Below the pieces are notes generated by a model. The model saw nothing but the letters and a program-made list of their open reading frames with translations, ran no database searches and was not told the DNA's origin. DNA of 64,000 bases from Minisyncoccia bacterium (lineage in GTDB: Bacteria > Patescibacteriota > Minisyncoccia > Phycocordibacterales > Phycocordibacteraceae), in assembly GCA_050011835.1 (NCBI GenBank), contig JBEKII010000002.1, forward strand, positions 76,173 through 140,172. Reading direction: 5' to 3'. Shown one piece after another: positions 21,422-55,776 of the stretch (positions within the stretch are counted from its first letter, which is position 1; each line of letters begins with the position of its first letter). The translations under genes were made by a program, and so were the position numbers.

Positions 21422-21492
21422 CGCGGGGTAGAGGAGAGGTACCTCGGGAGGCCCATAACCTCCAGACGCCGGTTCGATTCCGGCCCCCGCAA
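21422..21492 (+). tRNA. tRNA-Met(CAU)
   Basis: Acceptor CGCGGGG/CCCCGCA with a C1:A72 mismatch. T8A9. D-stem GAGG/CCTC. Anticodon stem GGAGG/CCTCC with loop CCCATAA. T-arm GCCGG-TTCGATT-CCGGC. Confidence 0.75.
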
Positions 21493-21575
21493 CACGGTTG
21501 TGAGTCAGTGTCAAGTACCGCCCCGCACCAGAAGTTTTGAAAAGTTGATACAGTACCGATAGGCATGAAGCTCCG
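21488..21575 (+). repeat. att-like core CAACACGGTTGTGA plus ~80-nt tail, copy 1; overlaps the tRNA-Met 3' end
   Basis: The same core and a related tail (..CAGTACCG..GTACTGTACCGA..) recur at 32572 and 34618. Degenerate cores occur at 24752 and 35848. Confidence 0.6.
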
Positions 21576-21585
21576 AAAAAACACA

Positions 21586-21615
21586 AAAGCCGCGACGTAC
21601 GTCGCGGCTTTTGTG
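21586..21615. terminator. Bidirectional terminator (perfect palindrome)
   Basis: aaaagccgcgacg-tac-gtcgcggctttt, lying between tRNA-Met (+) and the RT 3' end (-). Confidence 0.6.
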
Positions 21616-21632
21616 TTTGTCTAGCACACATG

Positions 21633-22715
<1,083 letters not shown>

Positions 22716-22717
22716 GT

Positions 22718-23068
22718 ATGAATGATGCCGATATTCCGATTCTGAAGAAAGCATATGATTTGTATCTCACCTTTCACACGTATCGGCGTGTCGTGCCCAA
22801 AGCCGAGCGATTCACCCTCTACGAACGTTGTGAGAACGCAATTCTCGATATGGTCGAAGCGATTCTTGAAGCCGGATACTCGAAGAGCGCACAGAAGATG
22901 ACAGTGCTCGAACGTGCAAGCGTGAAGCTCAATATCATTCGCTTTTTCATCCGCCTTTTGAAGGAAACTCGTTCCATCGATACGAAGAAATATGTGAAGC
23001 TCCAAGAAATGATTGATGAGATCGGTAGAATGCTCGGCGGATGGATACGATCGACGGATTCTCGATAA
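22718..23068 (+). CDS. avd: DGR accessory variability determinant (Avd; four-helix-bundle family)
   Basis: 116 aa. C-terminus EIGRMLGGWIRS resembles the Bordetella phage bAvd EVGRILGSWIAR. Placed adjacent to the RT. Confidence 0.75.
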   Translation: MNDADIPILKKAYDLYLTFHTYRRVVPKAERFTLYERCENAILDMVEAILEAGYSKSAQKMTVLERASVKLNIIRFFIRLLKETRSIDTKKYVKLQEMIDEIGRMLGGWIRSTDSR

Positions 23069-23109
23069 CAAACAGCGTCCGTCAGGACGCTGTTTGGGGT
23101 GAGAAGCGA

Positions 23110-23239
23110 CTTCGGAAGGAACGCCGATGCCGAACCATAGTTGTCGTTCGCATTGTCGATCCAGTTCGTGTTGAACTTGAGCCTGCCGTCGTTGAAGTTG
23201 AAGATCGGCGCGTTCGAGAACTCGGACTCGTCGCTCGGC
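23110..23239 (-). repeat. DGR template repeat (TR); sense strand is minus
   Basis: ~130 nt matching the 3' end of the target gene. Rich in AAC codons. Mismatches to the VR are mostly at TR adenines. Flanked by the perfect hairpin aaacagcgtcc-gtca-ggacgctgttt (23075-23105). Confidence 0.7.
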
Positions 23240-23675
23240 GTTTGCCCTCGCCCGTCCGTGGCACCGGAGCTTGAGACCGTCTCTCGCTCCTGAACTTTAT
23301 CCGGCGACACCGTATTAGCGGTTCGCCTTGGGCGAAGGCAAGCAGTATCTCCTCACCAAGGGCACGCTTGTGCAAATCGTGATCGGCACAACTCTGGCCC
23401 GGTTTCTCGAAGAGAAAGAGTTCGGCGACGGCCGTCCGTGGAGAACCGTGCATGAGCCTAGACTCGCTCATGAATATAGCAGATGCGGCGGAATCGCGGA
23501 ATTTGACTATTTATACCAGACGTGCTATCCTCTAGCCAGATTAAAAGTCCTTTCCAATCCAAGAATCACTGGGTATGAGACGAGCTTTTTGCGGCTTATT
23601 GCTAGGCCGTAGCAAGCTCGTCTCATACAGAGCCGCACGTCGGGGCGAATCCGGCAAAAAAGGAGAGCTAACGTT

Positions 23676-24582
23676 ATGAAAACGCTTACTCAAACTCAAG
23701 AACCAGCAACCGAAGGGCAGATCAAATCGATTGCGCGCGTAGGTTCGGACGCTGCCGACAAAGCCGTTCGCGATTATTTCGCAGCAAACCCAACGACCAA
23801 AGAAAATGCACAGCGCGGACATGCGAGCGGCGACCAACTCGCCGACGTAATCCGCACCGCCGTACAGTCCTGGCTCGCTGACACCGTCGTCTCCGACAAG
23901 TACAAGGACGAAGAAGTGGAATCCAGCTACGGCTATCTTTCCGGGTATATCAAGCCGAAAGATAGTGCCGACCAGCTCAAGATCCTGCACGAATACTTTC
24001 CGGAGCTGCCAAAGGGCGATTTGTCGCCGCTCGGCATCGCTGCAGAAAATGCAGAGGGTACTTTCATCATTCCGCACTGGTCGCTCGTTGCCAAAACCTA
24101 TCCTGAAGCGGTACAGAAAATCATCGTTGCACTCACCAAACAGCGTGGCGGCAAATTCCACAACTACCGCGATGGCGAGATTGACGCAGATCACATTCGC
24201 GAAACGACGCAAAAGATTGCGGCCATGCAACAGCTGCGTGACGCACAGAAGAGCGATCTGCTTCAGGTTCCTGCACAGTTCGGCATTCGCCATCGCGGAC
24301 GCTCAGTCCGCAGGGCACGCGAAATCTTCGCCGTCAACGAGTTCGGTCTCGGTGCCTGGGAAATCGGCTGTATGCTCCTCACCACCCATCCCGAGCGCCT
24401 CAACGACTACAACGACCTCTGGATCGATTGTGCTGGCGATGAGTTCAAGCCGAGCGACGAGTCCGAGTTCTCGCGCGCGCCGGTCTTCAGCTTCCGCGGC
24501 GGCAAGCCCATGTTCGGCGCTGGCGAGGTCGGCATTGCCAACGACGACTATGGCTCCGCATCGGCGTTCCTCCCGCAGTGAT
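23676..24582 (+). CDS. DGR target protein with a C-terminal variable region (C-type-lectin-like VR)
   Basis: 301 aa. Strong RBS aaggagag. The C-terminus ...SDESEFSRAPVFSFRGGKPMFGAGEVGIANDDYGSASAFLPQ matches the TR-encoded ...SDESEFSNAPIFNFNDGRLKFNTNWIDNANDNYGSASAFLPK. Confidence 0.75.
24450..24579 (+). repeat. DGR variable repeat (VR)
   Basis: Aligns to the TR over ~130 nt with 28 mismatches, 19 of them at TR adenines. Followed by the inverted repeat ctcgagtcc...ggctcgag (24591-24637). Confidence 0.7.
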
Positions 24583-24643
24583 TCTTGTATCTCGAGTCCT
24601 TGGCTCTTTTGTGTATTCTTGATCCTTGGGCTCGAGAAATTTT

Positions 24644-24680
24644 CGGGGCTGTCCATTGCGGATGGCCCCGATTTCTTTTT
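24644..24680 (+). terminator. Rho-independent terminator after the DGR target gene
   Basis: cggggctgtccat-tgcg-gatggccccg followed by atttcttttt. Confidence 0.55.
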
Positions 24681-24689
24681 ATTATGATG

Positions 24690-24770
24690 GGCGTCGGAAT
24701 CGAACTAAAAGTTCAAGCATCTAGGCCATAGAAAGTCCAGTTCGATTATGGACCCGGCAACAAGGTCAGA
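24690..24770. repeat. Island junction: two oppositely oriented tRNA-3'-end-like fragments, a 30-mer repeat, and a degenerate att core
   Basis: Minus strand: GTTCGATTCCGACGCCCATCA. Plus strand: AAGTCCAGTTCGATTATGGACCCGGCAACA, identical to 34595-34624, followed by aggtcagactg (degenerate CAACACGGTTGTGA). Confidence 0.55.
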
Positions 24771-26267
24771 CTGTCCAGCACGGAAGTCCTTAGATAGCTT
24801 GAATATGGGCGACAAAACAGCGGTGCCAAACAATCCGGTGGTTTTGTCGTACACGATGCCCTCTGGTAGCACCAATTTCTGCAATCGTTGCTTCTTTGCA
24901 GGGTTCGTTAGATCGAGCCACTGACGCGCCACATCGCGCACAAATTGCGTTCCATAGGCCAGTTGTATCTCAAGGTCTGCTTCGCTCGTCTGTGCCTCGT
25001 TCTTGGCGATTCTAAGCCCTGTGAGCTGGTTATCTAGCGAATCACGCATCTCGGTATATTCTTCTTTAGAAATCTCTTGGTTAACGCGCATAGTCAGTAG
25101 TCGTCGCTTCTGATTCTCCAAGTTGCCCAATCGGACGGCATAATGCTGTTTCTCCTGTCCCGCGCTTGTCTTGCGAGAGCGTATCTCGTCGAGCATCACT
25201 TGTTCAAACATACTGACAAACTTCTCGGTAGGCGTAATCCGCTTTAGGTAACCGTAGAACTTCTTTTCCAAAATATCCTTGGCGATATTATCTCTGTTGG
25301 TACAGGCCGAATTGTGGCAACGATAGTAGGGGTACTTTTTACCACTACGGCCTGTCTGCCAACTCGCGGTCATGAAAGATCCACAGGTACAGCGAATAGC
25401 CCCGCGTAACGGGAAATCGGGATGGTGTTTAAGGCGGAAACTGGTCGCGTTATTTGATAACCCGCGCTTCACGTTCTGAATGGCCCCGTATTCTTCAAGC
25501 GTAATCATCGGCTTGTGCAGTCCTCGATGTTCGTCGCCGCTCCACGGGTCAGTAAGGACTCCGGCATAGAACTTGTTTGTAAGTATTACGTTCCAGAGCT
25601 GTTTGCTCATCGGCTTACCGGTTCGCGTTTGTAAACCCCATTTATTACTCTCCTCGGCCAGTTGCGTGATGGTGTGCTGTCCGCCAGTATAAAGGCGTAA
25701 ACCCTTTTGAATGAGATAGAAACGCTCCTCATCTGGTTGATCCGGTAGAAGCTTGCGACGCTCCACTCTGTTCTTTGAGTTCGTATATCCTATTGGCGGC
25801 ATCCATGGCGAAATGCCATCGCGCAGACGCGCCCGCATACCGCCCTCGCATCGTTGCTTGCGTATATCGTTTTCAAATTGAGCATATCCGGCTAGCATCG
25901 CCTCAAGCATTTTTCCTACAGGCCCCTCGCTGATTATTTCTTCCGTAACTGAATGTAGAGAAGTGCCGTACTTGAGCAGTTGCGCTTGTAGCCCATAGTG
26001 GTCGGTCATGTTGCGAGCGAAGCGGTCGAGCTTCCAGACAATGAAGGCCTTTATCTCGTCCTTATGTTCCTTGCAGTAGTCGAGTGCCTTGATGAGTTCG
26101 GTGCGATTCGCGGCAGTAGCCGATTCGCCGCGCTCAATGAAAATCTTTGCCACCTTTAAGCCCTTATTTTCGGCATACTCTATACACGCACGCTCTTGGC
26201 TCTCCAAACTGGTGCCGTGGAGCTGGTCGTTAGAAGATACTCGACAGTATATGATTCCTTGGTTCAT
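24705..26267 (-). CDS. Large serine recombinase (integrase)
   Basis: 520 aa. N-terminal resolvase catalytic domain IYCRVSSNDQ...S...R, a recombinase domain, and a Cys-rich zinc-ribbon region (CTCGSF...CHNSAC). Its 3' end overlaps the 30-mer repeat. Confidence 0.85.
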   Translation of the reverse strand: MNQGIIYCRVSSNDQLHGTSLESQERACIEYAENKGLKVAKIFIERGESATAANRTELIKALDYCKEHKDEIKAFIVWKLDRFARNMTDHYGLQAQLLKYGTSLHSVTEEIISEGPVGKMLEAMLAGYAQFENDIRKQRCEGGMRARLRDGISPWMPPIGYTNSKNRVERRKLLPDQPDEERFYLIQKGLRLYTGGQHTITQLAEESNKWGLQTRTGKPMSKQLWNVILTNKFYAGVLTDPWSGDEHRGLHKPMITLEEYGAIQNVKRGLSNNATSFRLKHHPDFPLRGAIRCTCGSFMTASWQTGRSGKKYPYYRCHNSACTNRDNIAKDILEKKFYGYLKRITPTEKFVSMFEQVMLDEIRSRKTSAGQEKQHYAVRLGNLENQKRRLLTMRVNQEISKEEYTEMRDSLDNQLTGLRIAKNEAQTSEADLEIQLAYGTQFVRDVARQWLDLTNPAKKQRLQKLVLPEGIVYDKTTGLFGTAVLSPIFKLSKDFRAGQSDLVAGSIIELDFLWPRCLNF

Positions 26268-26497
26268 GGGGTTCCTTCGGTTAATGATACACCGGAAAGC
26301 GCGTCTCGTTTTCCATACCCGTCTTCTTTGCCAATGTCCAAAATCAATCCGGCGAGTTTATACATCTCGTCTCTAACAGCTGCAACCTCGGAATCACTCA
26401 TTGATTCGCTGGTTTCAGCGTCTAGATATTTCCGGCAATCTTGAACGTTGAGCATAGCTATCTCCTGTTTTCGCCCTCGGACATACACGGCATACAC
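26264..26497 (-). CDS. Small hypothetical protein upstream of the integrase (excisionase or regulator candidate)
   Basis: 77 aa, acidic. Its stop overlaps the integrase start (operon-like). Confidence 0.35.
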   Translation of the reverse strand: MYAVYVRGRKQEIAMLNVQDCRKYLDAETSESMSDSEVAAVRDEMYKLAGLILDIGKEDGYGKRDALSGVSLTEGTP

Positions 26498-26499
26498 AA

Positions 26500-26610
26500 A
26501 ATGATTTCAATGAGCATCTGTAAGGGCACTGTGAGTGTATGCGCCCGTGTATGCGCAAGTGTGGTGTATGAGGAGCATGCACTTGGAATCGATATACACG
26601 TTTCCATACA
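26500..26610. promoter_or_regulatory. Iteron-like cluster of TGTATG/CATACA motifs
   Basis: At least 7 copies in 110 bp (catacac, gtgtatgcgc x2, gtgtatgag, atatacacg, catacact), immediately upstream of the small-ORF/integrase operon. Confidence 0.45.
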
Positions 26611-28050
26611 CTAGGATTCTTTAACATCTCCCTCATTCGTTTCGGGAGTGCATGGTTGTGTAGGCACATCCTCGTTTGCGACAGAGAAGTACGCCTTGTA
26701 GACCGCATCGACCTGTTCTCGCTTGAAGCGGTAACGTGCAGCCCTGTTGCTTCTCGGAAGTTTTTCAGAAGAGAGATTGAATTTAGCGATGACTTTCCCA
26801 ACTTCAGCCGCCCGCTGTTTTTTTGTGATGCAGTCCTCATCAAACAGAAAGACGTCTACAGACTCAGAGATTTCAGATGGCGAAAGAACCATCTCATCCT
26901 GCTCGCCTAAGAGCTGGCGTGTGACCTCTATGATGGCTTGCTCCAGATCCGATACTTGGTATTCAGTGAAGTTGTATTGAGACAAGAATCGTTCCTTGGC
27001 TATTCGCTGGTCGTTTTCCGGTACTCCAAGTACAGAAAACATGACATCGAAAAGCATCCAGAGTTCCAGTTTCCTTGCAAAAAATGCAGGGTTGGTCTGT
27101 CGTTCATACTCAATCTTCTTCATTACATGCGTACCTACAGCAAACATAAAATGGCCAATCAACAATCGGTACAAAGCCCCTCTGGTCTCTTTCCATATAG
27201 GGCTCTCCTCATCAAGAGACTTGAAATTCTTTCTGCTACGCACCAACGAAATGACGATGCACCGGTCGCGCAAGTCTTCGGGGAGTTCTTTTATTGAGGC
27301 AAACGCCTTCGGACTATACGCTTGAAATTCCTCCAAATTCCAATTCTTGCCCTTATCGGCAACCATTTTTCGAATGTTGCCACCCCCACGCTTATAGGAA
27401 TCAGTGAGGATGTCGAGAAGGTCTTCCATGTAGAATGGTCTATTGAGAACATCGGCTTGATCCATGAGATATGTGCCTCGCAACGAATCAACCGTGTCTC
27501 GTAGCGCTGGGAGGCTTGCACGGGCTTTGGTGGCGTTGAAACAGACTTGGTTCAAGAAGCTCAAGCACTGGGTCTTTCCGGAGCCTTTTGGCGCTTTAAT
27601 GTGCAGATAGGGATACGCCGAGAACAGCGGAAAGAAATACGTTCCGATAGCCCATGTACACATAAGAATTACATCAGCCTCGTCAATATCCATGTGTTGT
27701 TTGAGGAGGCTTTTGAGACTCTCGAATATCTCTAGTGGCGCTTGTACTTTCTGACCCGTGAGAAAGGTTTTTAGGAACGCATCGAGTTCTTTTCTGCTCC
27801 ACCGGTGCGCGAGCTTGGCCAGCACTCTTTTCTTAGTGTCAATGTAGTATGTTTTATCTTTAATCGTGAAAGAGTTGCCGGTGATGGTAAAGGCCGATGT
27901 GGCGGTCGCAATAACGAAAAGCTCACTACCGTCTTTGTTAGCCTCCGGTTTGACTCTGAATCCGAGCACGAGAATGTCGTCCTTGATGTCGAGTGATGGG
28001 TGAAAGTTTATTTCCTCGTAGAAGTCAGTCTCGTTGCTTTGCGTTTCCAT
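26611..28050 (-). CDS. P-loop NTPase, likely a replication helicase/primase-associated protein (VirE/D5-like)
   Basis: 479 aa. Walker A KAPKGSGKTQ. Walker-B-like YLMDQAD. In island context. Confidence 0.5.
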   Translation of the reverse strand: METQSNETDFYEEINFHPSLDIKDDILVLGFRVKPEANKDGSELFVIATATSAFTITGNSFTIKDKTYYIDTKKRVLAKLAHRWSRKELDAFLKTFLTGQKVQAPLEIFESLKSLLKQHMDIDEADVILMCTWAIGTYFFPLFSAYPYLHIKAPKGSGKTQCLSFLNQVCFNATKARASLPALRDTVDSLRGTYLMDQADVLNRPFYMEDLLDILTDSYKRGGGNIRKMVADKGKNWNLEEFQAYSPKAFASIKELPEDLRDRCIVISLVRSRKNFKSLDEESPIWKETRGALYRLLIGHFMFAVGTHVMKKIEYERQTNPAFFARKLELWMLFDVMFSVLGVPENDQRIAKERFLSQYNFTEYQVSDLEQAIIEVTRQLLGEQDEMVLSPSEISESVDVFLFDEDCITKKQRAAEVGKVIAKFNLSSEKLPRSNRAARYRFKREQVDAVYKAYFSVANEDVPTQPCTPETNEGDVKES

Positions 28051-28062
28051 ATCAATTTAGTG

Positions 28063-28332
28063 TTAATTTCCATTTAATCTGTCGAGTAACTCGTTTCGCG
28101 CACGCTCGTAGAGATGCACCGGCACGAGTAATTCCGTGTCGTTTCGTTCACCGAATTTATATTTCTCAACTAGCTCCTCTAGGTAAGGTGAGAGCACGAA
28201 CGCAAACTCTTTTTTGCCCGAATCCGATACAACATTGATGCCTGCTATCTGCTGGTTTTTAGCGAATAAAAAGATAGCGAGTTTTAATGATGTGGTGCGG
28301 AGGTACCGCTCTTTATCTGTTCTTGATTTCAT
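28063..28332 (-). CDS. Hypothetical small protein (island)
   Basis: 89-aa ORF in operon arrangement with the ATPase. Confidence 0.35.
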   Translation of the reverse strand: MKSRTDKERYLRTTSLKLAIFLFAKNQQIAGINVVSDSGKKEFAFVLSPYLEELVEKYKFGERNDTELLVPVHLYERARNELLDRLNGN

Positions 28333-28476
28333 CTTTCAATTTTCTTACGAATCATGAATGATGCGAAGCGATTGTGGCCGATGGGAAAATCTAAAACACG
28401 GCTCAAATCATAAAGAAAATACCTGCGGAAGCAGGTCATATTTCACTCGCGTACAATCGACTGCGCTAAAACTACT

Positions 28477-29025
28477 TTATCGTGTGTTGTTAAAAATTAT
28501 TCCTTCGCCCTTTTTCGCTTCTATCAGAGGGCGATTCTCACTTGAGCTGTTTTCAATATTTTTCGCGTATCTGAAAAAACCATTCTGTTCGCTGGTCAAG
28601 TTAGTTCTTATTCTGGCATCTCTGTCACTTCCGTTTTTAGGAGCTATTTTTCTTCCCTTAATCCTTCGTTTTCTAAGAGCAGTCTCAATCTCTGCGTACG
28701 TTTTTTCTCCACCATCTGGCATAAGCTCGAATACAACATCAAAAACATTAAAATAGAGGGTGTTTCGGTTACCTATCGAAATAGAAGCTCCATTGTAATA
28801 ATAAGTCTTATCTACCTTGTCTACGATTCGATTGTCTTTGACTTTAAATCTATTTTCTAACTCCTTAATCCGCCTCTCATGTCCGTCAACCATATCTAAT
28901 CTTGCTTCAATCATTGCTATATGTAGGGCTTTACTGTGAGGGGTGCCGTAAAGAGCATCAAAAAGCAAGTGACGCCTCTTGCGTTTTAGATCCCCCTCAT
29001 TTACTGAAATATTCTTATTCTCCAT
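28477..29025 (-). CDS. Hypothetical protein (island)
   Basis: 182-aa ORF. No recognisable motif. Confidence 0.4.
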   Translation of the reverse strand: MENKNISVNEGDLKRKRRHLLFDALYGTPHSKALHIAMIEARLDMVDGHERRIKELENRFKVKDNRIVDKVDKTYYYNGASISIGNRNTLYFNVFDVVFELMPDGGEKTYAEIETALRKRRIKGRKIAPKNGSDRDARIRTNLTSEQNGFFRYAKNIENSSSENRPLIEAKKGEGIIFNNTR

Positions 29026-29149
29026 ATCAATCTCAATGCAATTATCTCATATTTTGCGCCATATTTCAAGCGTTTTGTACACATGTGAGCGTCATGAACT
29101 TTGATGGTGCTAGCAAGATTACTACTACCTGCTACACTAACCTCGTAAA

Positions 29150-29300
29150 CCGAATATGTGCCTAAACCCTCGGTAACGAGGGCATGGCGAGAGGCCCTGT
29201 AGAGATCAGAAAACCCATCATGTGGGACTGTCTCTACAGGCCGTAGCGGGAAACCGTTATGGAGGGCGCAAGCCCTCACCCATGTGGTGGGTTTTCTGCG
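29150..29300 (+). ncRNA. Candidate structured RNA or cis-regulatory leader with three GNRA-capped hairpins
   Basis: ccctcg-GTAA-cgaggg. ggccctgtagaga...tctctacaggcc (13-bp stem). cgg-GAAA-ccg. gagggc-GCAA-gccctc. Strand is uncertain. Confidence 0.3.
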
Positions 29301-29336
29301 TAAACACAAACTCTCCTCTGGCTTTAATAGATTGAG

Positions 29337-31157
29337 ATGAAAATTACCATGAAAAAAATTACCGTCGCTCTCGCCGTTCTATTTTTTGTAGTGCCATCAG
29401 TATCGTTTGCAGCGGGTCTCACGAATTCACAAATTCAAGCAATACTCTCACTTCTTTCCTCTTTTGGCGCAGATAGCGCGACGGTTGCAAGTGTTCAGAC
29501 AGCTCTAACCGGAACATCAACGACCGGAGGGCAATCCTGCTACAACTTCTCTACCAATTTACGCATAGGACAAAGCGGCTCTGGCATCACCGCGCTTCAA
29601 ACGGCGCTTCGGAATGACGGGGAATCAGTAACCGTGAGCGGCTCGTTTGACGATCAAACCGCCTCTGCTGTTACGGGTCTCCAACAAAAGTATGCAAACG
29701 ATATCCTTACCCCGAATGGCCTTCAATACGGTACTGGCTATGTTGGTGCTGCAACGAGAGCGAAATTGAATAGCCTTTGTGCCAATGGTTATCAACAGAC
29801 GACCTCAGCGATGAATCCGGCGACAACACAAACAGTAACGCCGACACCGCCGACACCGCAGACCAATCAACAAAATACTCAGCCGGTAACACCAACTCCG
29901 ACACCTTCTGTTTCTTCAACACAAACAAATTCACCATGGGTAGACATTAAGGCCGATGGTTCTAATGGCCCGATTACTATGCCCATAGACGGCCCAGCAG
30001 TAACAATCTCTTGGACATCGCATGGTGTACTGAATTGTGCCTTTACCGACATGTCGGGTGTAGCGACGAGCGTCAGCACATCTGGCAGTAAATCGGAATC
30101 GTTCTCAGGAACGGCGCAGAAGAATACAGTAACTATTAGCTGCTCTGCTCTGGTGAATAATGTTGTTACACCAAATGCGGTTTCCGACTCGGTCGTTGTG
30201 AATGTAGCCCCTCCAACAGGGCAAATCTCACCGATTTCCGTTTCATCCGATTCGAGTCCAGCCAATGTATTCCAAGGTACCGGCGGGACACTCGCTAGCT
30301 TCACTCTGACTGGTTCAAATGAGGCAGTAAAAGTTACCGACCTCTATCTCTGCTCCATTGATTCGATTCATCATGGTGGTCTTGCAAACGTCTCCATCAT
30401 GGGAGTCAATGCCTCGACACTGTCGATTGTCGACTGCGATACGAGCCCTGCAGGCACTGACTTCTCGCTCGGTTCTTCTCTCATCCTGCCAGCCAGAGGT
30501 ACGGCCTCAATAACTGTCTCCGGCACTGTGAAAACATCGACAGGAACAAATCTCTCGGACGGCGAGACGGTGCAAATCAAGCTCGTCGGTCAGGGTTCTC
30601 AAGGATCTAATGGCGTAGGCCAATCTTCACTCAATCCTTACACCATACCGAGTAGCGATGTCTTAGGACGCGCGGTGCCCGTTGTCGGTAGTGGGACACT
30701 TTCTGCATCTCCGGCATACTCGTGCTCGTTGGTTCAGACCGGTCTTGGTAATCAGAGTGCCTGTCTCGGATCATTTACGCTCTCTGCGATGAAAGAGGGA
30801 ATCACCGTTAACACAATAGGAATTGATATGTCGGCAGCCAATGCGGCGCTCGTGACGAATCTAACACTGAAGTATCACTATGGTGATAACAATCAGGGTG
30901 CAGTACTTGGCTCAGTCATCACAACACCAAGTGCAAACAATCCGTTTTATATGACTCCTGTATCTTTTGGTACTGGGAGGGGTCTCGATATTTCAACCTC
31001 GGGACTCACAACGATTGATGTCTATGGAAATGTTCCATCGGGTGCGGGTACAATTCAATTGACTCTCGACCCATCGACGAGCGGTACTGGCGATATGACG
31101 GGCATTTCGGCCTCGCTTGCCTCGCCAGTGCAGCTCAAGGCCGTTACAATTCAGTAG
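29337..31157 (+). CDS. Secreted cell-surface protein with a PG-binding-like domain and Ig-like repeats
   Basis: 606 aa. Signal peptide plus a conserved leader (AAGLTNSQIQAILSLLSSFGADSAT). A LxxGxxGxxVxxLQ PG_binding_1-like block. Thr/Pro-rich linker. Confidence 0.65.
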   Translation: MKITMKKITVALAVLFFVVPSVSFAAGLTNSQIQAILSLLSSFGADSATVASVQTALTGTSTTGGQSCYNFSTNLRIGQSGSGITALQTALRNDGESVTVSGSFDDQTASAVTGLQQKYANDILTPNGLQYGTGYVGAATRAKLNSLCANGYQQTTSAMNPATTQTVTPTPPTPQTNQQNTQPVTPTPTPSVSSTQTNSPWVDIKADGSNGPITMPIDGPAVTISWTSHGVLNCAFTDMSGVATSVSTSGSKSESFSGTAQKNTVTISCSALVNNVVTPNAVSDSVVVNVAPPTGQISPISVSSDSSPANVFQGTGGTLASFTLTGSNEAVKVTDLYLCSIDSIHHGGLANVSIMGVNASTLSIVDCDTSPAGTDFSLGSSLILPARGTASITVSGTVKTSTGTNLSDGETVQIKLVGQGSQGSNGVGQSSLNPYTIPSSDVLGRAVPVVGSGTLSASPAYSCSLVQTGLGNQSACLGSFTLSAMKEGITVNTIGIDMSAANAALVTNLTLKYHYGDNNQGAVLGSVITTPSANNPFYMTPVSFGTGRGLDISTSGLTTIDVYGNVPSGAGTIQLTLDPSTSGTGDMTGISASLASPVQLKAVTIQ

Positions 31158-31962
31158 GGGTACTGTTTGGTAGTGTGTTATTTGGCGCAAAATAGTTAGG
31201 AATTAAGCCTTATTCATCAATGTCAGCACACGACACCAATTTTGTTGTTCTTGGTCAATATCTTGCCGGCTAGCTTGGTCTAAGCTAAGTTATAAATAGG
31301 AACGCAAAAAAGCCCTTCTTTCGAAGAGCTTTCTGGGTTCTCAAGAGTTACACCTCTTTTTGAACAGTCTTGTTTCTAGGAAGCGCTCTTAACCTTACGG
31401 CGAGAGCGTTTTCCTTTTCTCGACACTCCCCCAATAGGGAAGCACTTGAACCCGTAATCGGAAGCGTGTAATACGCGACCGTTACGGAGGGTTATGGTTG
31501 CAACGCAATTCATAGTTCTGTTTTTGTTGGCGGAGCTTGATAAAGATTTCATTATTTCAGGGCGTCACGCACTTCACTCCCTAATGCGCTGGCAGAAAAC
31601 ACCGATGGATAGACCAACGGTCAAAGCCAATAGATTTCAAAGAACAAAGGCCTCAAGGGACGGGACTCCGTGGAAGTTTCCTTCCGCGAAATACCCTCCT
31701 CTAAGGCCTTCTAATCTGTTCGATTTGAAAATCTGTTGTCTTAGGTAATTCGGTAAGTCCCGTCCCCTCTTGCGAGGTAACTCCAATATAACACTTTTTT
31801 CTTTGTCAATAGCCTTTTCGGAAAGACACCTGTGGAGAGCGGATTATTCGTCGTCTTTCCCTTCCATCTTTGCAGTAATTATCCTAGTTAAACTAAAATA
31901 ACCTATCATCAGGCTAGTTAAACTAACATAATATATCATCCGACAGCATCCATTCGGGCTAT

Positions 31963-32481
31963 TTAAGTGGCCGCTGCCGCGACGTCCTCCATCGTGATAC
32001 CAGCCCGCTTGATGAGCATGTATTTCGTTTCGCCGGAGAGATATGGCTTTCGTATCGCACGGGATATCGCTCTCGCTTTCCTCGATGGTTGCTCATACTG
32101 AAGGCGACAGCAGATACGGCAGAGCGGGGATTCCAACATACTGTATTCGTAAAGGTACTTTACACGGCGGTAACAGCCGTTGCAGCGGAAGTAGAAAATA
32201 TATCCTCGGTCTGGCCCAAGATTGGAGGGTACGAACTCTACTTTCTGCCGATCCCAGTATAAATAACCGCCATGAATATCTCGCGCCGACTTAAAAGCGG
32301 TATTTTCAGGAAGATTTATCTGCTCAACCATATTTTTGACTTCGCCTAGATGTCGGGTGTTGAATATCCGCCCCCTATCCCTCATGTGCCACACAAAGGT
32401 TCTGATGTAGTCAGTAATATCCTTTCGATCTAACACTGTTATTTTCTGGTTTTTCTCTTGTCGGGAGCTGTACATAATCAC
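31963..32481 (-). CDS. Hypothetical protein with a Cys4 zinc-finger-like motif
   Basis: 172 aa. CNGC...CRICC motif. Confidence 0.4.
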   Translation of the reverse strand: MIMYSSRQEKNQKITVLDRKDITDYIRTFVWHMRDRGRIFNTRHLGEVKNMVEQINLPENTAFKSARDIHGGYLYWDRQKVEFVPSNLGPDRGYIFYFRCNGCYRRVKYLYEYSMLESPLCRICCRLQYEQPSRKARAISRAIRKPYLSGETKYMLIKRAGITMEDVAAAAT

Positions 32482-32571
32482 TAAGAATCTCTAAGACAAC
32501 TCTGCATAGCTCCGCAAATCCACGCTCAGCCATGCCGAAATCTGTTGCCAATCTCGTCTAACGGATGCAAC

Positions 32572-32690
32572 ACGGTTGTGACGCCAGGAACCAGTACCGT
32601 CCCCCGTCAAAATTGGTACTGTACCGACCCTCATGGTCGGCTAGAAAAGCGCATAAAACCACGAGAGTGATTTTTGCGTATGTAGCATTT
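32572..32690 (+). repeat. att-like core plus tail, copy 3
   Basis: caacacggttgtgacgccaggaaccagtaccg...ggtactgtaccgac...aaaagcgcataaaaccac. Confidence 0.6.
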
Positions 32691-32812
32691 CCAACATATT
32701 TCCAGTTCAATTCCGACTCTCGTATTCGCCACTGTTTTGTGTTCTAATCACGGGAATCTGGTTCAATTCCGGCGCGGGTTTTTATATAAGAAAAGAGTAT
32801 ATAATCTAGAAA

Positions 32813-33397
32813 ATGAAGCGCATACCAATACCAAGTCCTTATTTTGACCTGAACGAACAGGTGAGCGATCTCTATTACGACGCAATGGAATTGGTTGATA
32901 GCGGGAAGGTTGGTGCGAAAAGGGCAGAGAAACTTTTAACAAAGGCACTTGAGCTCGATCAGCATTCCGTTCAGGTTCATATTGGTTTTGCACATGTATA
33001 CGGAACGCTTGGGGACAAAGTGAAGGCCGAGGATCATATTAAAAAAGCGTATAAAGAAACACAAAAACTCTTTCCCTCATGGCCTCGGCGCATGGAATGG
33101 GGCATTATGGAGAACCGGCCGTATATGCGAGCCATTCAATATCAGGCAGATTTATACGCTCGCACGAAAGTGAACGAAAAAGCCATTGAGCTATACCGGC
33201 TCCTTTTAAAAATGAATCCGAATGATAATCAGGGAGTTAGGTACACACTTTCTGGCGTCTATGCGGGAATAAGCGGTCAGGAGATAAACGCGATGTTTGA
33301 TGAGGGGAACGAAAAGCAAAACTGGGACGCGCTTGAACTACTGGTCAAGGAACAAAACGCGCAACACAGGTTTTGGAAAGAACCAAAACTGAAGTAG
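32813..33397 (+). CDS. TPR-like repeat protein
   Basis: 194 aa. Helical repeat pattern of the form (ALELDQH...AYKE). Confidence 0.5.
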   Translation: MKRIPIPSPYFDLNEQVSDLYYDAMELVDSGKVGAKRAEKLLTKALELDQHSVQVHIGFAHVYGTLGDKVKAEDHIKKAYKETQKLFPSWPRRMEWGIMENRPYMRAIQYQADLYARTKVNEKAIELYRLLLKMNPNDNQGVRYTLSGVYAGISGQEINAMFDEGNEKQNWDALELLVKEQNAQHRFWKEPKLK

Positions 33398-33412
33398 TTT
33401 TGCTGAGCCTAA

Positions 33413-34468
33413 TTATTTTCTTCGATATCGCGTCGAACGGCCGCTACCGATGCGCTCGATCATCTTGAGCCGCATGAGTTTCTGCAAGGCTTGATTCACA
33501 GTCGGGCGCGGCACTCCAGCCGCGAGAGCAATTTCGCTCGGAGTCGCAGTGCCGGTCTGTGGAATATTCTTCCACACTAATTCCTGTTGCGGCGAAAGAA
33601 GTTGTTCGGTCTGTGCGTGCGTGAGCAAGTTGAGTGCCTGTTTCGACTGTTCAAGAATCACATTCAAGAAGAAGCGCATCCACGGTGTGATATTCGCATT
33701 GTTAAATCGAAACGTTCGTTGGCTCTGTCGGAGCGCGAGATAGTAATCGGTCTTATGGTCCTCGATGATTTTCTCATGCGAGACGTAGGGCATATAGGCG
33801 TAGCCCTGCTGCAAGAGAAGAAGGTTCGTGAGAATGCGTGACAGCCGCCCGTTGCCGTCCTCGAACGGATGAATGGCGAGAAATTCCACGATGAAGTTGC
33901 CGATGACGAGAAGAGGATGAAATTTCCGTTCGAGAATCGCTTGTTGTGTCCACTCCACGAGTTCCAACATTTCTTTGCCGGTCAGATACGCAGGCGTAGT
34001 ATCGAACAGCACACCAACCGACTCATCGGCGGCGTTTACCATCTCAACACGATTTTCTTTCTTCTTGTATTCGCCCCGATGCAGTTCGTCTTTTTCTGCA
34101 TGCTTCAAAAGCTCGCGATGGAAAAATTTAATAGTGCCTTCGGAGAAGGGAATTGATTGATACGAATTGAAGACATTCGTGAGCAATTCATAATATCCTT
34201 GGACCTCTTGCGCATCGCGACTTCGGAATCGCTTGAGCGAGAGTCCGCGCATGAGTTTCTCTACGTCTTCATCAGAGAGTTCTGATCCTTCGATGCGCGT
34301 CGAAGCGCCTGTCGAAGTGACTAGTACTGATTTTCGCAGACGCGTGAGCACCTGCCGATCCAAGTTAGCGCCTTCAACCCACTGCCCGCGAAGCTCGTCT
34401 ATCTGGCGAATAAGCTCCGAGATTTCGTTCGGAAAGGTCGTTATTCTTTTGTTAAATTTTCCATTCAT
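33413..34468 (-). CDS. Fic/Doc family protein with a C-terminal winged HTH
   Basis: Fic motif HPFEDGNGRLSR (HPFxxGNGR). Start set at the internal Met (MNGKF...). C-terminal wHTH. Confidence 0.8.
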   Translation of the reverse strand: MNGKFNKRITTFPNEISELIRQIDELRGQWVEGANLDRQVLTRLRKSVLVTSTGASTRIEGSELSDEDVEKLMRGLSLKRFRSRDAQEVQGYYELLTNVFNSYQSIPFSEGTIKFFHRELLKHAEKDELHRGEYKKKENRVEMVNAADESVGVLFDTTPAYLTGKEMLELVEWTQQAILERKFHPLLVIGNFIVEFLAIHPFEDGNGRLSRILTNLLLLQQGYAYMPYVSHEKIIEDHKTDYYLALRQSQRTFRFNNANITPWMRFFLNVILEQSKQALNLLTHAQTEQLLSPQQELVWKNIPQTGTATPSEIALAAGVPRPTVNQALQKLMRLKMIERIGSGRSTRYRRK

Positions 34469-34594
34469 AATCTTATATATCTGATACATGAGATTGTATA
34501 AGATTACATAAGAAAATGCAATATCCTGAGTACTGAACGGGGCGTAGAATTTAATAAAAGCAAGTAGATAAGCCACATGTGACACTTTTCAGAT

Positions 34595-34730
34595 AAGTCC
34601 AGTTCGATTATGGACCCGGCAACACGGTTGTGATGTCGGTTTCCAGTACCGGTGTTCGTCAAAATCAGTACTGTACCGACTCCTTCGATTGGCCAAAAAA
34701 GCGCATAAAACCACATGAGCGCCAAGAAAG
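34595..34730 (+). repeat. 30-mer (integrase 3'-end duplicate) plus att-like core plus tail, copy 4
   Basis: aagtccagttcgattatggacccggcaaca-cggttgtga-tgtcggtttccagtaccgg...gtactgtaccgac...aaaagcgcataaaaccac. Confidence 0.6.
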
Positions 34731-41825: not shown

Positions 41826-42740
41826 ATGACGTGGTTTTTTATTGCGCTGGCAGGATCACTTCTGGTTGCGTTTTCAAACCATATTGATAAATATCTAATT
41901 TCGAAGTATCTGCAGGGTGGGCAGGTCGGTTCACTCATTATATTTTCCGCGATATTTTCTACCGTTGCCCTGCCAATCTTAGTACTCATTCATCCGGCAA
42001 TTTTTAACATCACTCCGTTGCAGGGAATTGCGCTGATGATCAATGGCATGCTAGTGGTTCTGGCTGTTCTTTGTTATTTTTATGCGCTTCATAAAGATGA
42101 AGCGACTTTTGTCGTTCCTTTTTATCAAACGATACCAATTTTTGCGTTTATTCTCGGCTATTTCATTCTTGGAGAAACCATCTCTAAGATTCAAATATTT
42201 GGATCTTTTATTATTATTGCCGGGGGACTCATTTTATCTTTCGAGTTGCTTGAGAGAAAAAAAATAAAATTTAAAAAAGAAGTAGTGTTGCTGATGCTCA
42301 CCGCATCCATTTTTTACGCGATAAATGGCGTGATATTTAAATTGATCGCTATAAACGAGGGATTTTGGCCGTCTATATTCTGGGGTCTTGCTGGACATCT
42401 TGTGATTGGAATCTGGTTTTTAACTTTCATTCCAAAGTATCGTAGGCAGTTTTTCGAAATGTTGAGGGAAAATAAGGCCGCGGTCATTAGTCTGAACTCG
42501 TTTAGCGAAATGCTTTTTATTGTATCAGAGGCTTTAACTGCATATGCAACCCTCCTTGCGCCAGTTGCGCTGGTTCTTCTGGTGAATGCATTCCAGCCCG
42601 TTTTTGTCTTTATAATTGGTATTATCTTAGCCATATTTTTGCCACATATTAGTCAAGAATCAATTGAACGAAGAGTCCTGATTCAAAAAATTGCTGGGAT
42701 ATGCCTTGTCCTCATCGGTTCATATTTTATTGGAGTGTAA
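41826..42740 (+). CDS. EamA/DMT-family transporter
   Basis: 304 aa, about 10 TM helices, two EamA-like halves. Confidence 0.65.
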   Translation: MTWFFIALAGSLLVAFSNHIDKYLISKYLQGGQVGSLIIFSAIFSTVALPILVLIHPAIFNITPLQGIALMINGMLVVLAVLCYFYALHKDEATFVVPFYQTIPIFAFILGYFILGETISKIQIFGSFIIIAGGLILSFELLERKKIKFKKEVVLLMLTASIFYAINGVIFKLIAINEGFWPSIFWGLAGHLVIGIWFLTFIPKYRRQFFEMLRENKAAVISLNSFSEMLFIVSEALTAYATLLAPVALVLLVNAFQPVFVFIIGIILAIFLPHISQESIERRVLIQKIAGICLVLIGSYFIGV

Positions 42741-42803
42741 TGAGGGAAAAATCTTGTCGTCGTTTTATATGGATGGTATACTTAGAATGTAGAATGAAGT
42801 AAC

Positions 42804-43193
42804 ATGTCAAAAATAGACCCATTCGGATATCTCTTAACACTCGATCTTTACGAATGTAAAAAGGGCGCATGCGATGACCTATCACTATGCTCTAAATTTT
42901 TAGAGGATATCGTTGTCCAACTTAAGATGGATAAACAATCGCCCCCATTCATCTTCCGAAGTGATACGATTGCGTATCCTAACAAAGCGGGACTCTCCGG
43001 ATGGATCCCTCTTATTCAAAGCGGTGTCCAGATTCATACGTTGACGCCAAAGAATTTCATTTCAATTGATATTTACTCATGTGGAAAGTTTTCAGCGGAT
43101 AATATCGAAGAGTACGTCCGAAATTATTTTGGATGCAAGGAAGTCGAGGTCCACTTTATTGAGAGGGGCGTAAAATATAATAGTATACGTTAA
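42804..43193 (+). CDS. S-adenosylmethionine decarboxylase proenzyme-like (SpeH/SpeD class 1b)
   Basis: 129 aa. The ...SGWIPLIQSGVQIHTLTPKNFISIDIYSCG block resembles the SpeH core ...SESHISIHTWPE...VDVFTCG. Confidence 0.45.
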   Translation: MSKIDPFGYLLTLDLYECKKGACDDLSLCSKFLEDIVVQLKMDKQSPPFIFRSDTIAYPNKAGLSGWIPLIQSGVQIHTLTPKNFISIDIYSCGKFSADNIEEYVRNYFGCKEVEVHFIERGVKYNSIR

Positions 43194-43345
43194 GAAGATG
43201 ATTGAATCCCTTGGTCGAAATTGACTACTGAATAGTTGCCCTTTATTATCGTTTCATAAAACGTCAATGTAACGGAAACAACACCCAATAAGACAACGAA
43301 TATGAATAAGAATTTCCCGAGTTTCCTCATACGCTAAATTATACC

Positions 43346-44665: not shown

Positions 44666-44709
44666 GATGCGTGAAATTATAATCGGGTTTATAATGACAT
44701 CGATACCAC

Positions 44710-53677: not shown

Positions 53678-53763
53678 TAGGTCTGCAAAAATCGCCGATA
53701 GGCGGTTTTTGTGTTGGGTTGGACAGATTACCAAAAAATTAGCGTTATGGTATAGTACTTTTC

Positions 53764-55766: not shown

Positions 55767-55776
55767 CTAAATAAAT

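What the first reader, a model, noticed from the sequence alone, without database searches (positions are those of the whole stretch)
29150..29300. Candidate structured RNA with multiple GNRA-capped helices upstream of the island surface-protein gene
In 150 nt there are four clean hairpins. Three are closed by GNRA tetraloops (GTAA, GAAA, GCAA) and one has a 13-bp perfect stem (ggccctgtagaga/tctctacaggcc). The region is non-coding on both strands, and a strongly expressed secreted-protein gene follows. This could be a riboswitch, a ribozyme, or an island-encoded sRNA.
Basis: seen in the sequence. Interest (0 to 1): 0.55.

Follow-up and report, generated by a model that had tools for sequence, protein, structure and literature searches.

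The report
LOOT RNA inside a mobile island
The hairpin cluster is a genuine copy of LOOT RNA, a known structured RNA of ultra-small (CPR) bacteria whose function is unknown. Here, as in many other genomes, it sits next to a large serine recombinase in a mobile element, at the head of the downstream gene's transcription unit.

Summary
Window 29159-29277 (+) matches Rfam RF03000 (LOOT RNA) over the full model at 84 bits, against a gathering score of 46.4. Its function is not.

I compared 156 LOOT copies from genomes and metagenomes and found four features that lie outside the Rfam model.

1. A 15-21 bp pairing (S2) links the apical loop of the long hairpin P2 to the U-rich 3' tail. All 18 tested pairs show compensatory changes. 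S2 leaves about 3 nt of linker, so full S2 and full P2 probably cannot coexist, and the two folds are near isoenergetic.
2. An extended -10 promoter is followed by a LOOT-specific 5' motif, ACAAYTKAATA.
3. A co-directional ORF starts about 35 nt after the tail. The downstream region is same-strand coding in 93 of 121 loci and opposite-strand in none. The downstream genes are very diverse.
4. Large serine recombinase genes are strongly linked to LOOT: 51 of 156 LOOT loci against 1 of 189 control loci.

In the window, LOOT and the recombinase lie between 33/34-identical direct repeats.

Best reading: an element-borne, promoter-proximal leader RNA that controls read-through and translation of cargo genes. 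Probability about 0.45. A free-standing sRNA is the main rival.

The parts
29130..29138 (+). Putative extended -10 promoter of LOOT (TGcTACACT)
   Evidence: In 95 homologues that carry the 5' motif, the best TATAAT-like hexamer ends 6-7 nt before the motif in 52. The window has TG-n-TACACT with a 7-nt spacer. The transcription start site is inferred, not measured.
29146..29156 (+). Degenerate copy (8/11) of the LOOT-specific 5' leader motif ACAAYTKAATA, probably the first transcribed bases
   Evidence: The motif scores >=10/11 in 72 of 133 copies, against 3 of 133 shuffles. Of 83 occurrences in 2 Mb, 67 lie directly upstream of LOOT. It is not complementary to the LOOT body or to the downstream leader.
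29159..29189 (+). P1 (UGCC/GGCG), with internal loop UAAA/CAU, enclosing hairpin P1a (CCCUCG-GUAA-CGAGGG). CCUAAAC/GCAUGG resembles the 11-nt GAAA-tetraloop receptor.
   Evidence: Rfam alignment. P1a is 94.7% paired with 4 covarying pairs. The receptor resemblance is my inference from textbook knowledge (CCUAAG/UAUGG).
29193..29242 (+). P2 long hairpin: arms 29193-29205 and 29231-29242 (12 bp plus one bulged C), apical 'tip' 29206-29230
   Evidence: P2 has 8-13 contiguous bp in all 134 copies, and 11 of 12 pairs covary.
29207..29226 (+). 5' strand of S2 (CAGAAAACCCAUCAUGUGGG), in the P2 apical loop; pairs with the 3' tail
29243..29260 (+). P3 hairpin with GAAA loop (29250-29253)
   Evidence: 96.6% paired; 7 of 7 pairs covary.
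29262..29277 (+). P4 hairpin with GCAA loop (29268-29271); end of the Rfam model
   Evidence: 95.4% paired.
29279..29298 (+). 3' tail: 3' strand of S2 (CCCAUGUGGUGGGUUUUCUG), including the U-run 29292-29295. Terminator-like, and outside the Rfam model.
   Evidence: flags a terminator-like site; 18 of 18 S2 pairs covary and 85.5% of cells are paired; the local hairpin is only -4.7 kcal/mol.
29337..31157 (+). Downstream co-directional gene (606 aa; signal peptide, PG_binding_1). Its ATG lies 38 nt after the tail.
24705..26267 (-). Large serine recombinase (Resolvase + Recombinase + Zn_ribbon_recom), in the leftward gene block that diverges from LOOT
   Evidence: Homologues are present in 50 other LOOT loci.
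24733..24766 (.). Left copy of the tRNA-3'-end-like direct repeat (putative att site)
34595..34628 (.). Right copy of the direct repeat (33/34 identical), followed by sequence resembling the flank of tRNA-Met

Best explanation
SHOWN. The locus is a typical member of the LOOT RNA family (Rfam RF03000).

INFERRED, STRUCTURE. It is transcribed rightward from its own extended -10 promoter. The RNA is about 150 nt:
- a short conserved 5' single strand;
- P1, with a tetraloop-receptor-like internal loop;
- P1a;
- the long hairpin P2;
- the GAAA-capped P3;
- the GNRA-capped P4;
- a U-rich 3' tail that pairs over 20 bp (S2) with the apical loop of P2.

INFERRED, LOCATION. It is carried by an integrative element that encodes a large serine recombinase, and it heads the element's rightward 'cargo' transcription unit.

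INFERRED, MECHANISM (about 0.45). LOOT acts in cis as a promoter-proximal leader.
- P2 and S2 are two near-isoenergetic folds that cannot both form completely.
- S2 places a long helix directly before the U-tract, so it behaves as a long-range intrinsic terminator and releases the small RNA.
- When P2 is locked, the tail can pair only partly. The polymerase then reads through into the cargo gene 35-40 nt downstream.
- In 13-16% of family members the downstream leader carries copies of the P2 5' arm and of the tip. These let the P2 3' arm and the tail refold over the start codon, adding translational control. The window copy lacks this module.

The signal that chooses between the folds is unknown.
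For: IDENTITY
- 84.0 bits against a gathering score of 46.4, model positions 1-121 of 121.
- 20 of 20 sampled homologue loci also pass the Rfam threshold.

S2 PAIRING
- Duplex with the copy's own tail averages -25.2 kcal/mol. Shuffled tails give -11.0, other copies' tails -15.1, and the same duplex read on the minus strand -17.4.
- Reproduced in 22 copies not used before: -25.2 against -10.9.
- On an independent MAFFT alignment all 18 pairs have double changes and 85.5% of cells are paired. The whole-structure covariation score is 0.577, against 0.195 for shuffles and at most 0.141 for slid controls.
- RNAalifold picks S2 unprompted.
- Local hairpins in the tip and tail are not supported. The local tail hairpin averages only -3.0 kcal/mol, yet 128 of 134 copies have a T-run.

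TWO STATES
- S2 has a median of 17 bp, with a median of 3 nt of linker in total to the P2 arms.
- P2-forced and S2-forced folds differ by 1.2 +/- 4.4 kcal/mol. For the window the values are -73.0 and -75.5.

CIS ARRANGEMENT
- The downstream region is same-strand coding in 93 of 121 loci, opposite-strand in 0, ambiguous in 28.
- The start codon lies a median of 35 nt after the tail, too close for a separate promoter.
- Upstream neighbours are mostly divergent.
- A conserved promoter and 5' motif precede LOOT.

RBS MIMICS
- Perfect 10-12-nt copies of the P2 5' arm end 2-6 nt before the ATG in about 17 loci.
- Repeats of >=9 nt occur in 13.4% of loci, against 1.7% of permuted controls.

MOBILE ELEMENT
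- A large serine recombinase is present in 51 of 156 LOOT loci, against 1 of 79 and 0 of 110 control loci.
- 40 of 42 upstream recombinase genes are divergent from LOOT; 9 of 9 downstream ones are co-directional.
- 17 of 32 loci with >=5 kb of upstream sequence have one within 5 kb.
- In the window, 33/34-identical direct repeats bracket the recombinase and LOOT.
Against: - There are no expression data. The transcription start, the 3' end and read-through are all inferred.
- Rfam types LOOT as an sRNA gene.
- The steric incompatibility of P2 and S2 is a geometric argument, not a measurement. Fraying of the top of P2, or pairing between two molecules, could allow both helices.
- S2 may simply be a structural pseudoknot that also protects the 3' end.
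- The window copy shows no significant pairing with its own ribosome-binding region (z = -1.0), and about 85% of copies lack the mimic.
- No input signal is identified. There are few conserved unpaired nucleotides that could form a ligand pocket.
- The homologue set was collected with exact patterns (GCCTAAACC...GGCATGG, plus GAAA/GNAA for the metagenome scan). It covers only part of the family, and conservation of those positions is by construction.
Confidence: 0.45

Rival explanations
1. Free-standing trans-acting small RNA, as Rfam types it. LOOT is made as a discrete ~150-nt RNA ending at the U-tract. S2 is a pseudoknot that tucks in and protects the 3' end. The conserved single-stranded 5' motif ACAAYUKAAUA is a seed or protein-binding site. 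The downstream gene is merely reached by leaky read-through.
For: - Own promoter, a U-run in 128 of 134 copies, and a compact covarying fold.
- A conserved 5' single strand that pairs with nothing in cis.
- The downstream genes are unrelated to each other.
- At most one copy per locus, and one in the 64-kb window.
- 84% of copies have no RBS mimic.
Against: - 0 of 121 loci have a convergent gene downstream, and the spacing to the next start codon is a tight ~35 nt.
- RBS-proximal copies of the P2 arm and tip occur in 13-16% of loci.
- No enriched complement of the 5' motif in the window.
- No extended complementarity to the recombinase operon.
Confidence: 0.3
2. RNA partner of the large serine recombinase element. 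LOOT is an element-encoded regulator or cofactor, for example an immunity or maintenance RNA of the P1 c4 / P4 CI kind, or an RNA needed for recombinase function or directionality.
For: - The recombinase is the only gene widely shared among LOOT neighbourhoods.
- Enrichment is 51 of 156 against 1 of 189.
- The relative orientation is fixed.
- Both lie inside the repeat-bounded island in the window.
- Like c4/CI, some copies have complementary repeats at the downstream RBS.
Against: - LOOT is not in the recombinase's UTR. 40 of 42 upstream recombinase genes are divergent from it.
- Its variable segments pair with each other rather than being free.
- No match to the putative att repeats in the window, nor to the upstream 3 kb.
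- A recombinase was seen in only 33-53% of loci, although the flanks are short.
- No known large serine recombinase uses an RNA.
Confidence: 0.1
3. Metabolite- or ion-sensing riboswitch whose aptamer is the P1-P4 core and whose expression platform is the tip/tail helix.
For: - Potential 5' UTR position in 93 of 121 loci, the criterion given in PMC5737381 for cis-regulatory motifs.
- Two alternative folds, a terminator-like tail and RBS-sequestering variants.
- A likely tetraloop-receptor tertiary contact.
Against: - Almost all conserved nucleotides are in helices, the receptor-like loop or the tetraloops. There is no obvious pocket.
- Downstream genes fall into 72 clusters among 107, with no shared pathway.
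- Mobile-element context.
Confidence: 0.08
4. Self-cleaving ribozyme, DNA-level site (att site or cruciform), degraded coding remnant, or chance hairpins.
For: Mobile-element context. Inverted repeat at 29207-29226 / 29279-29298. A mechanical 102-aa ORF on the minus strand.
Against: - No ribozyme family matches.
- S2 is rich in G-U pairs (for example UG in 112 of 134 at one pair) and is 8 kcal/mol weaker on the other strand, so selection acts on + strand RNA.
- LOOT is internal to the island, not at its ends.
- Fold z = -7.1, and there is family-wide compensatory change.
Confidence: 0.03

Closest known systems
LOOT RNA motif (Rfam RF03000; from the Weinberg/Breaker ZWD collection, PMC5737381 and PMC7779021)
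   Same: Full-length covariance-model match. Same P1 internal loop CCUAAAC/GCAUGG, same order of helices, GAAA and GNRA loops. Homologues come from Parcubacteria (OD1), Microgenomates (OP11) and Saccharibacteria (TM7) genomes.
   Different: Nothing in the modelled 121 positions differs. The following lie outside the Rfam model: the tip:tail helix S2, the promoter and 5' motif, the strict co-orientation with the next gene, and the recombinase linkage. I could not read the original supplementary description, so I cannot say whether any of these was noted before.
Phage P1/P7 c4 and satellite phage P4 CI immunity RNAs (from my own knowledge)
   Same: Small structured RNAs of mobile elements, encoded promoter-proximally in the same transcription unit as their targets. 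They act through short repeated complementary segments, one of which covers the ribosome-binding site of the downstream gene.
   Different: No sequence or model match. In LOOT the complementary segments are stem arms rather than loops. Only 13-16% of copies have the downstream repeats. No processing or immunity function has been shown.
Riboswitch-type transcription attenuators (terminator versus anti-terminator)
   Same: 5' leader position, U-tract preceded by a helix, alternative near-isoenergetic folds, and occasional RBS sequestration.
   Different: The competing helices (P2 and S2) share no nucleotides. Their exclusion would be steric or topological, not by strand exchange. There is no identifiable ligand pocket and no coherent regulon.
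11-nt GAAA tetraloop receptor (CCUAAG/UAUGG), as in group I/II introns and RNase P (from my own knowledge)
   Same: CCUAAAC/GCAUGG matches 9 of 11 positions. P3 always carries GAAA.
   Different: The G.U wobble is replaced by A/C, which is potentially isosteric when protonated. Docking is not tested.
IS110 bridge RNA and IS200/605 omega RNA (recombinase- or nuclease-associated guide RNAs)
   Same: A conserved structured RNA genetically linked to a mobile-element recombinase.
   Different: LOOT is divergent from the recombinase gene, not in its UTR. It shows no complementarity to the putative att sites. The recombinase family is different (large serine recombinase).

Membership tests
LOOT RNA (Rfam RF03000) | Covariance-model score at or above the curated gathering score over the full model | tested here: met
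   84.0 bits against 46.4, model 1-121 of 121, E = 2.2e-14 for the window.
LOOT RNA (Rfam RF03000) | Conserved P1 internal loop CCUAAAC ... GCAUGG flanking a hairpin | tested here: met
   29161-29167 and 29182-29187 match every upper-case consensus position.
LOOT RNA (Rfam RF03000) | Helix series P1/P1a/P2/P3(GAAA)/P4(GNRA), supported by compensatory changes | tested here: met
   All helices are present. Percentage of cells paired in 134 homologues: P1a 94.7, P2 72.8, P3 96.6, P4 95.4. 48 of 55 pairs have double changes.
LOOT RNA (Rfam RF03000) | Occurrence in candidate phyla radiation lineages (OD1, OP11, TM7; the meaning of the name is from memory) | tested here: inconclusive
   I could not name the window's organism. 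Its BipA is only on record in a Logan metagenome assembly. The named LOOT-bearing genome loci are Parcubacteria, Paceibacteria, Microgenomates and Saccharibacteria MAGs.
Intrinsic (Rho-independent) terminator | Stable G+C-rich hairpin directly followed by a U-tract | tested here: inconclusive
   The U-run is present (window 29292-29295; 128 of 134 copies). The local hairpin is weak: window -4.7 kcal/mol, family mean -3.0, and 54% of copies weaker than -3. A strong helix before the U-tract exists only as the long-range S2, mean -25 kcal/mol. Termination was not measured.
Riboswitch | Located in the potential 5' UTR of the regulated gene | tested here: met
   Downstream region same-strand coding in 93 of 121 loci and opposite-strand in 0. 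Start codon a median of 35 nt after the tail.
Riboswitch | Functionally coherent set of regulated genes pointing to a ligand | tested here: not met
   72 BLAST clusters among 107 downstream proteins. The commonest Pfam families (Zn-ribbon, 7; PG_binding_1, 5) cover fewer than 7% each.
Riboswitch | Selective ligand binding by a conserved aptamer core | not testable with these tools
   Needs in-line probing or ITC. In the alignment there are few conserved unpaired positions.
Known self-cleaving ribozyme classes | Match to a ribozyme covariance model or conserved catalytic core | tested here: not met
   The only Rfam match in 28900-29500 at E <= 1 is LOOT.
c4 / CI-type immunity RNA of mobile elements | Match to the Rfam c4 families | tested here: not met
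   No c4 hit. The resemblance is functional only.
Recombinase guide RNA (bridge-RNA-like) | Encoded in or adjacent to the recombinase UTR, with loops complementary to target and donor DNA | tested here: not met
   40 of 42 upstream recombinase genes are on the opposite strand. LOOT against the window's att repeats gives z from -0.2 to +1.3.
11-nt GAAA tetraloop receptor | CCUAAG/UAUGG internal loop that docks a GAAA loop | tested here: inconclusive
   9 of 11 positions are identical, with G.U replaced by A/C. P3 is GAAA in all copies found with the pattern that did not require it. Docking is not testable here.

The most novel reading that the evidence does not exclude
LOOT may be an integral RNA component of a CPR-wide family of small integrative elements, defined by a large serine recombinase plus LOOT plus variable cargo.

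Under this reading it is a bistable RNA: P2 versus a long-range terminator helix S2, whose mutual exclusion would be steric rather than by strand exchange. It would set whether the element's cargo or late operon is expressed, as an RNA-based genetic switch or immunity function. Alternatively it could be a cofactor of the recombinase.
Probability: 0.2. Interest if true: 0.7.

Novelty: already known. Interest (0 to 1): 0.4.

Why it matters
The element itself is a routine member of a catalogued RNA family, so the first-stage finding is explained.

What could matter is what the comparison shows about that family, whose function has been unknown since 2017:
- a strongly covarying helix outside the published model, which competes sterically with the main hairpin;
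- a dedicated promoter and 5' motif;
- a leader-like position in front of diverse secreted, membrane and defence genes;
- a tight link to large serine recombinases.

If these hold up, LOOT becomes a marker for a class of mobile elements in Patescibacteria. It would also be a tractable example of RNA-based control in organisms with almost no characterised regulation. Genetically tractable Saccharibacteria now make this testable.

Tried and rejected
- tRNA linkage: no consistent tRNA next to LOOT in 60 loci.
- Pairing of the 5' motif with the LOOT body or with the downstream leader: none (mean z +0.7 and +0.2).
- Targets of the 5' motif in the window: 4 matches against 3.8 expected.
- Antisense relation between LOOT and the upstream recombinase operon: longest matches no better than permuted controls.
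- LOOT complementarity to the window's att-like repeats: none.
- Local tip and tail hairpins as the conserved structures: not register-specific. 68% paired, against 63.7% for shuffles and 76.9% when slid by one column.
- Multiple LOOT copies per locus: none in 172 hit loci or in the window.
- Other island genes (RT, DUF5659, Fic, the 479-aa and 182-aa ORFs) as conserved partners: each is absent from all or nearly all other LOOT loci.
- Viral origin: only 2 LOOT copies (L020, L041) among 112 IMG/VR pattern hits.
- Origin of the window: the 606-aa downstream protein is not on record. BipA is on record only in a Logan metagenome assembly.
- The supplement of the paper that described LOOT is not held. 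No accessible paper assigns LOOT a function.

Full report
**Observation**

- P1a: CCCUCG-GUAA-CGAGGG, 29167-29182.
- P2: arms 29193-29205 and 29231-29242.
- P3: GAAA loop at 29250-29253.
- P4: GCAA loop at 29268-29271.

The only inaccuracy is that P2 is 12 bp with a bulged C, not 13 perfect pairs.

The + strand folds far better than shuffles: -75.5 against -48.9 +/- 3.8 kcal/mol, z = -7.1. The - strand gives z = -4.5.

**Identity**

A gathering-threshold scan of the whole window against Rfam 15 places RF03000 (LOOT RNA) at 29159-29277 (+). The score is 84.0 bits against a cut-off of 46.4, covering model positions 1-121 of 121. A permissive scan of 28900-29500 finds nothing else.

LOOT comes from the Weinberg/Breaker collection of candidate structured RNAs and entered Rfam in release 14 (PMC5737381, PMC7779021). 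Rfam types it as Gene; sRNA. I found no paper that assigns it a function. The supplement that describes it is not held.

**Related copies**

Pattern scans built on the invariant P1 loop returned three sets:
- 2 copies in IMG/VR;
- 41 among the first 120 genome hits, from Parcubacteria, Paceibacteria, Microgenomates and Saccharibacteria MAGs where a lineage is named;

Of these, 134 are distinct sequences and 22 more were kept as an independent set. Twenty of 20 sampled loci pass Rfam's LOOT threshold at 72-97 bits.

One caveat applies throughout. The P1 loop is invariant by construction of the search patterns, and so are the GAAA and GNAA loops in the metagenome set. Everything reported below lies outside those patterns.

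**A helix outside the model (S2)**

In the window, 29207-29226 (CAGAAAACCCAUCAUGUGGG) lies in the apical loop of P2. It is complementary to 29279-29298 (CCCAUGUGGUGGGUUUUCUG), the tail that begins two bases after the Rfam model ends.

Every copy has the equivalent pairing, although the sequences differ.

| Tip paired with | Mean duplex energy (kcal/mol) |
|---|---|
| Own tail | -25.2 |
| Shuffled tail | -11.0 |
| Tails of other copies | -15.1 |
| Own tail, read on the minus strand | -17.4 |

The minus-strand value shows that the many G-U pairs matter, so selection acts on + strand RNA. The 22 held-out copies give -25.2 against -10.9.

On a MAFFT alignment made without reference to structure (A1), all 18 S2 pairs show changes on both sides and 85.5% of cells are paired. 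One pair, for example, reads AU 40, CG 39, GC 24, UG 15, UA 8. For comparison, P3 is 96.6% paired and P4 95.4%. For the whole structure the covariation score is 0.577, against 0.195 for shuffles and at most 0.141 for slid controls. RNAalifold chose S2 by itself.

The small local hairpins that the tip and the tail could each form are not supported. The local tail hairpin averages only -3.0 kcal/mol, although 128 of 134 copies carry a T-run. The terminator-like site flagged is therefore a convincing helix-plus-U-tract only when the helix is S2.

**Two states**

S2 has a median of 17 bp. It starts directly at the end of the P2 5' arm in 78 of 134 copies, and the two linkers together have a median of 3 nt.

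A 17-bp A-form helix is roughly 45-50 Å long. I infer that it cannot be closed by 3 nt onto an intact P2. Either the top of P2 opens, or the two helices alternate, or the pairing is between molecules.

Nested folds forced to contain P2 or S2 differ by only 1.2 +/- 4.4 kcal/mol. For the window the values are -73.0 and -75.5.

**Transcription-unit anatomy**

- An extended -10 box lies 6-7 nt upstream of a motif ACAAYTKAATA. The motif scores >=10/11 in 72 of 133 copies, against 3 of 133 shuffles.
- The motif lies 10-28 nt before P1. It is specific to LOOT: 67 of its 83 occurrences in 2 Mb are directly upstream of LOOT.
- The window has TGcTACACT at 29130-29138 and a degenerate motif at 29146-29156.
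- Downstream, positions +120 to +270 after the tail are coding on the same strand in 93 of 121 loci and never on the opposite strand.
- The start codon lies a median of 35 nt after the tail (IQR 21-45). In the window it is 38 nt.
- Upstream neighbours are mostly divergent: 44 opposite-strand, 25 same-strand.

By the criterion stated in PMC5737381, this is a 'potential 5' UTR' arrangement.

**Downstream genes**

They are heterogeneous: 72 clusters among 107 proteins.
- About half have N-terminal signal or transmembrane segments.
- Pfam families include Zn-ribbon membrane proteins, PG_binding_1 (as in the window), proteases and restriction-modification enzymes.

**Alternative pairing with the ribosome-binding region**

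In about 17 loci a perfect 10-12-nt copy of the A-rich junction plus the P2 5' arm ends 2-6 nt before the ATG. It is often preceded by a copy of the tip that can pair with the tail. The P2 3' arm and the tail could then refold into a nested structure over the start codon.

Repeats of >=9 nt occur in 13.4% of loci, against 1.7% of permuted controls. The window copy has no such module (z = -1.0).

**Mobile-element context**

- Nine of 87 immediate upstream neighbours are large serine recombinases.
- tblastn with the window's recombinase (24705-26267, -) finds homologues in 51 of 156 LOOT loci.
- Controls: 1 of 79 non-LOOT genome loci, and that one appears to be a truncated LOOT locus; 0 of 110 viral loci.
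- 40 of 42 upstream recombinase genes diverge from LOOT. All 9 downstream ones are co-directional.
- Where >=5 kb of upstream sequence is available, 17 of 32 loci have the recombinase within 5 kb.
- No other gene of the window's island is widely shared.

In the window, AAGTCCAGTTCGATTATGGACCCGGCAACA occurs at 24733 and 34595 (33/34 over 34 nt). GCAACACGGTTGTGA occurs at the end of tRNA-Met (21488), at 32566 and at 34618. GC content falls to 0.44-0.48 between 26 and 34 kb. This is the pattern expected for tandem elements integrated at tRNA-Met. LOOT and the recombinase both lie inside one of them.

**Interpretation**

Shown:
- family membership;
- the covarying S2 helix;
- the promoter and 5' motif;
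- co-orientation and spacing to the next gene;
- the RBS mimics in a subset of loci;
- the recombinase linkage.

Inferred:
- transcription start and end;
- steric exclusion of P2 and S2;
- S2 acting as a long-range terminator;
- read-through as the route to cargo expression;
- GAAA docking into the CCUAAAC/GCAUGG loop, which resembles the 11-nt receptor CCUAAG/UAUGG (my own knowledge).

I rate the leader/attenuator model at about 0.45. The rivals are:
- a free-standing sRNA: 0.30;
- a recombinase-linked regulator or cofactor: 0.10;
- a ligand-sensing riboswitch: 0.08;
- everything else: about 0.03.

**Verdict**

The finding is real and well observed, but its identity is already known. The additional features make the LOOT family more interesting than its database entry suggests. 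They need transcript mapping and mutational tests.

Noticed in passing
window 21422-34632: Tandem island structure at tRNA-Met (21422-21493). tRNA-3'-end-like repeats occur at 24733 and 34595 (33/34 identical). The flank-like 15-mer GCAACACGGTTGTGA occurs at 21488, 32566 and 34618. A 101-nt repeat links 32567-32667 and 34619-34719 (76% identity). Genes in the region include a reverse transcriptase (21633-22754, -), a large serine recombinase (24705-26267, -) and a Fic/HTH protein (33413-34585, -).
   Followed up: partly
window 23109-23239 and 24449-24579: 131-nt inverted repeat (79% complementary) flanking the ORF at 23541-24293 (250 aa, no Pfam hit). It could be the ends of a small insertion element.
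   Followed up: no
window 21579-21618: Perfect 40-nt palindrome (AAACACAAAAGCCGCGACGT/ACGTCGCGGCTTTTGTGTTT) between tRNA-Met and the 3' end of the reverse-transcriptase gene. It looks like a bidirectional terminator.
   Followed up: no
window 55693-55767 (also L225 180-253): tRNA-Ile with anticodon TAT. This is an unusual way for bacteria to read AUA, normally done by a lysidine-modified CAT tRNA.
   Followed up: no
window 42000-46000: GC drops to 0.38-0.41, against about 0.50 elsewhere, over an ATP-grasp (GARS-like) gene and a histidine-kinase-like ATPase gene. This may be a second acquired segment.
   Followed up: no
window 53255-53678: tmRNA gene (Rfam 90.9 bits; tag peptide AKSPYFGKVGDIAFAYATARG), immediately upstream of ftsH (53764-55686).
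   Followed up: no
IMG/VR loci L022, L024, L049, L051 (e.g. L024 2354-2394); L018/L073; L025/L082: Recurrent viral-contig elements carry the same CCUAAAC-hairpin-GCAUGG module as LOOT P1 but none of the rest of LOOT. L025 and L082 carry a second, related copy (GCUAAAC...GCAUGC). They may be other structured RNAs that use the same receptor-like loop.
   Followed up: no
L283, about 1.7 kb downstream of its LOOT; L305, strand opposite to LOOT: Two of the 16 non-LOOT occurrences of the motif ACAAYTKAATA also follow a -10-like box and precede G+C-rich hairpins (e.g. GACAATTTAATAGAAATCCACCTACGTGGTGGGCACC). These may be other small RNAs that share LOOT's promoter and 5' end.
   Followed up: no
Downstream ORFs of L237, L240, L295, L324, L352: Several LOOT-adjacent secreted proteins share an SWWNPF(S/T)W motif right after the signal peptide. 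It may be a lineage-specific sorting or anchoring signal.
   Followed up: no
L335 positions 404 and 13022 (LOOT-oriented coordinates): A 17-nt exact direct repeat, TTACAATTAAATCCTGC, brackets both LOOT and the downstream recombinase. It contains a sequence like the LOOT 5' motif and may be an att site.
   Followed up: no
PMC7657543 (CaCoFold paper): LOOT is singled out there as an extreme case, with 28 'cross-covariations' in about 43 base pairs. The alternative pairings found here might contribute, but I did not test this.
   Followed up: no
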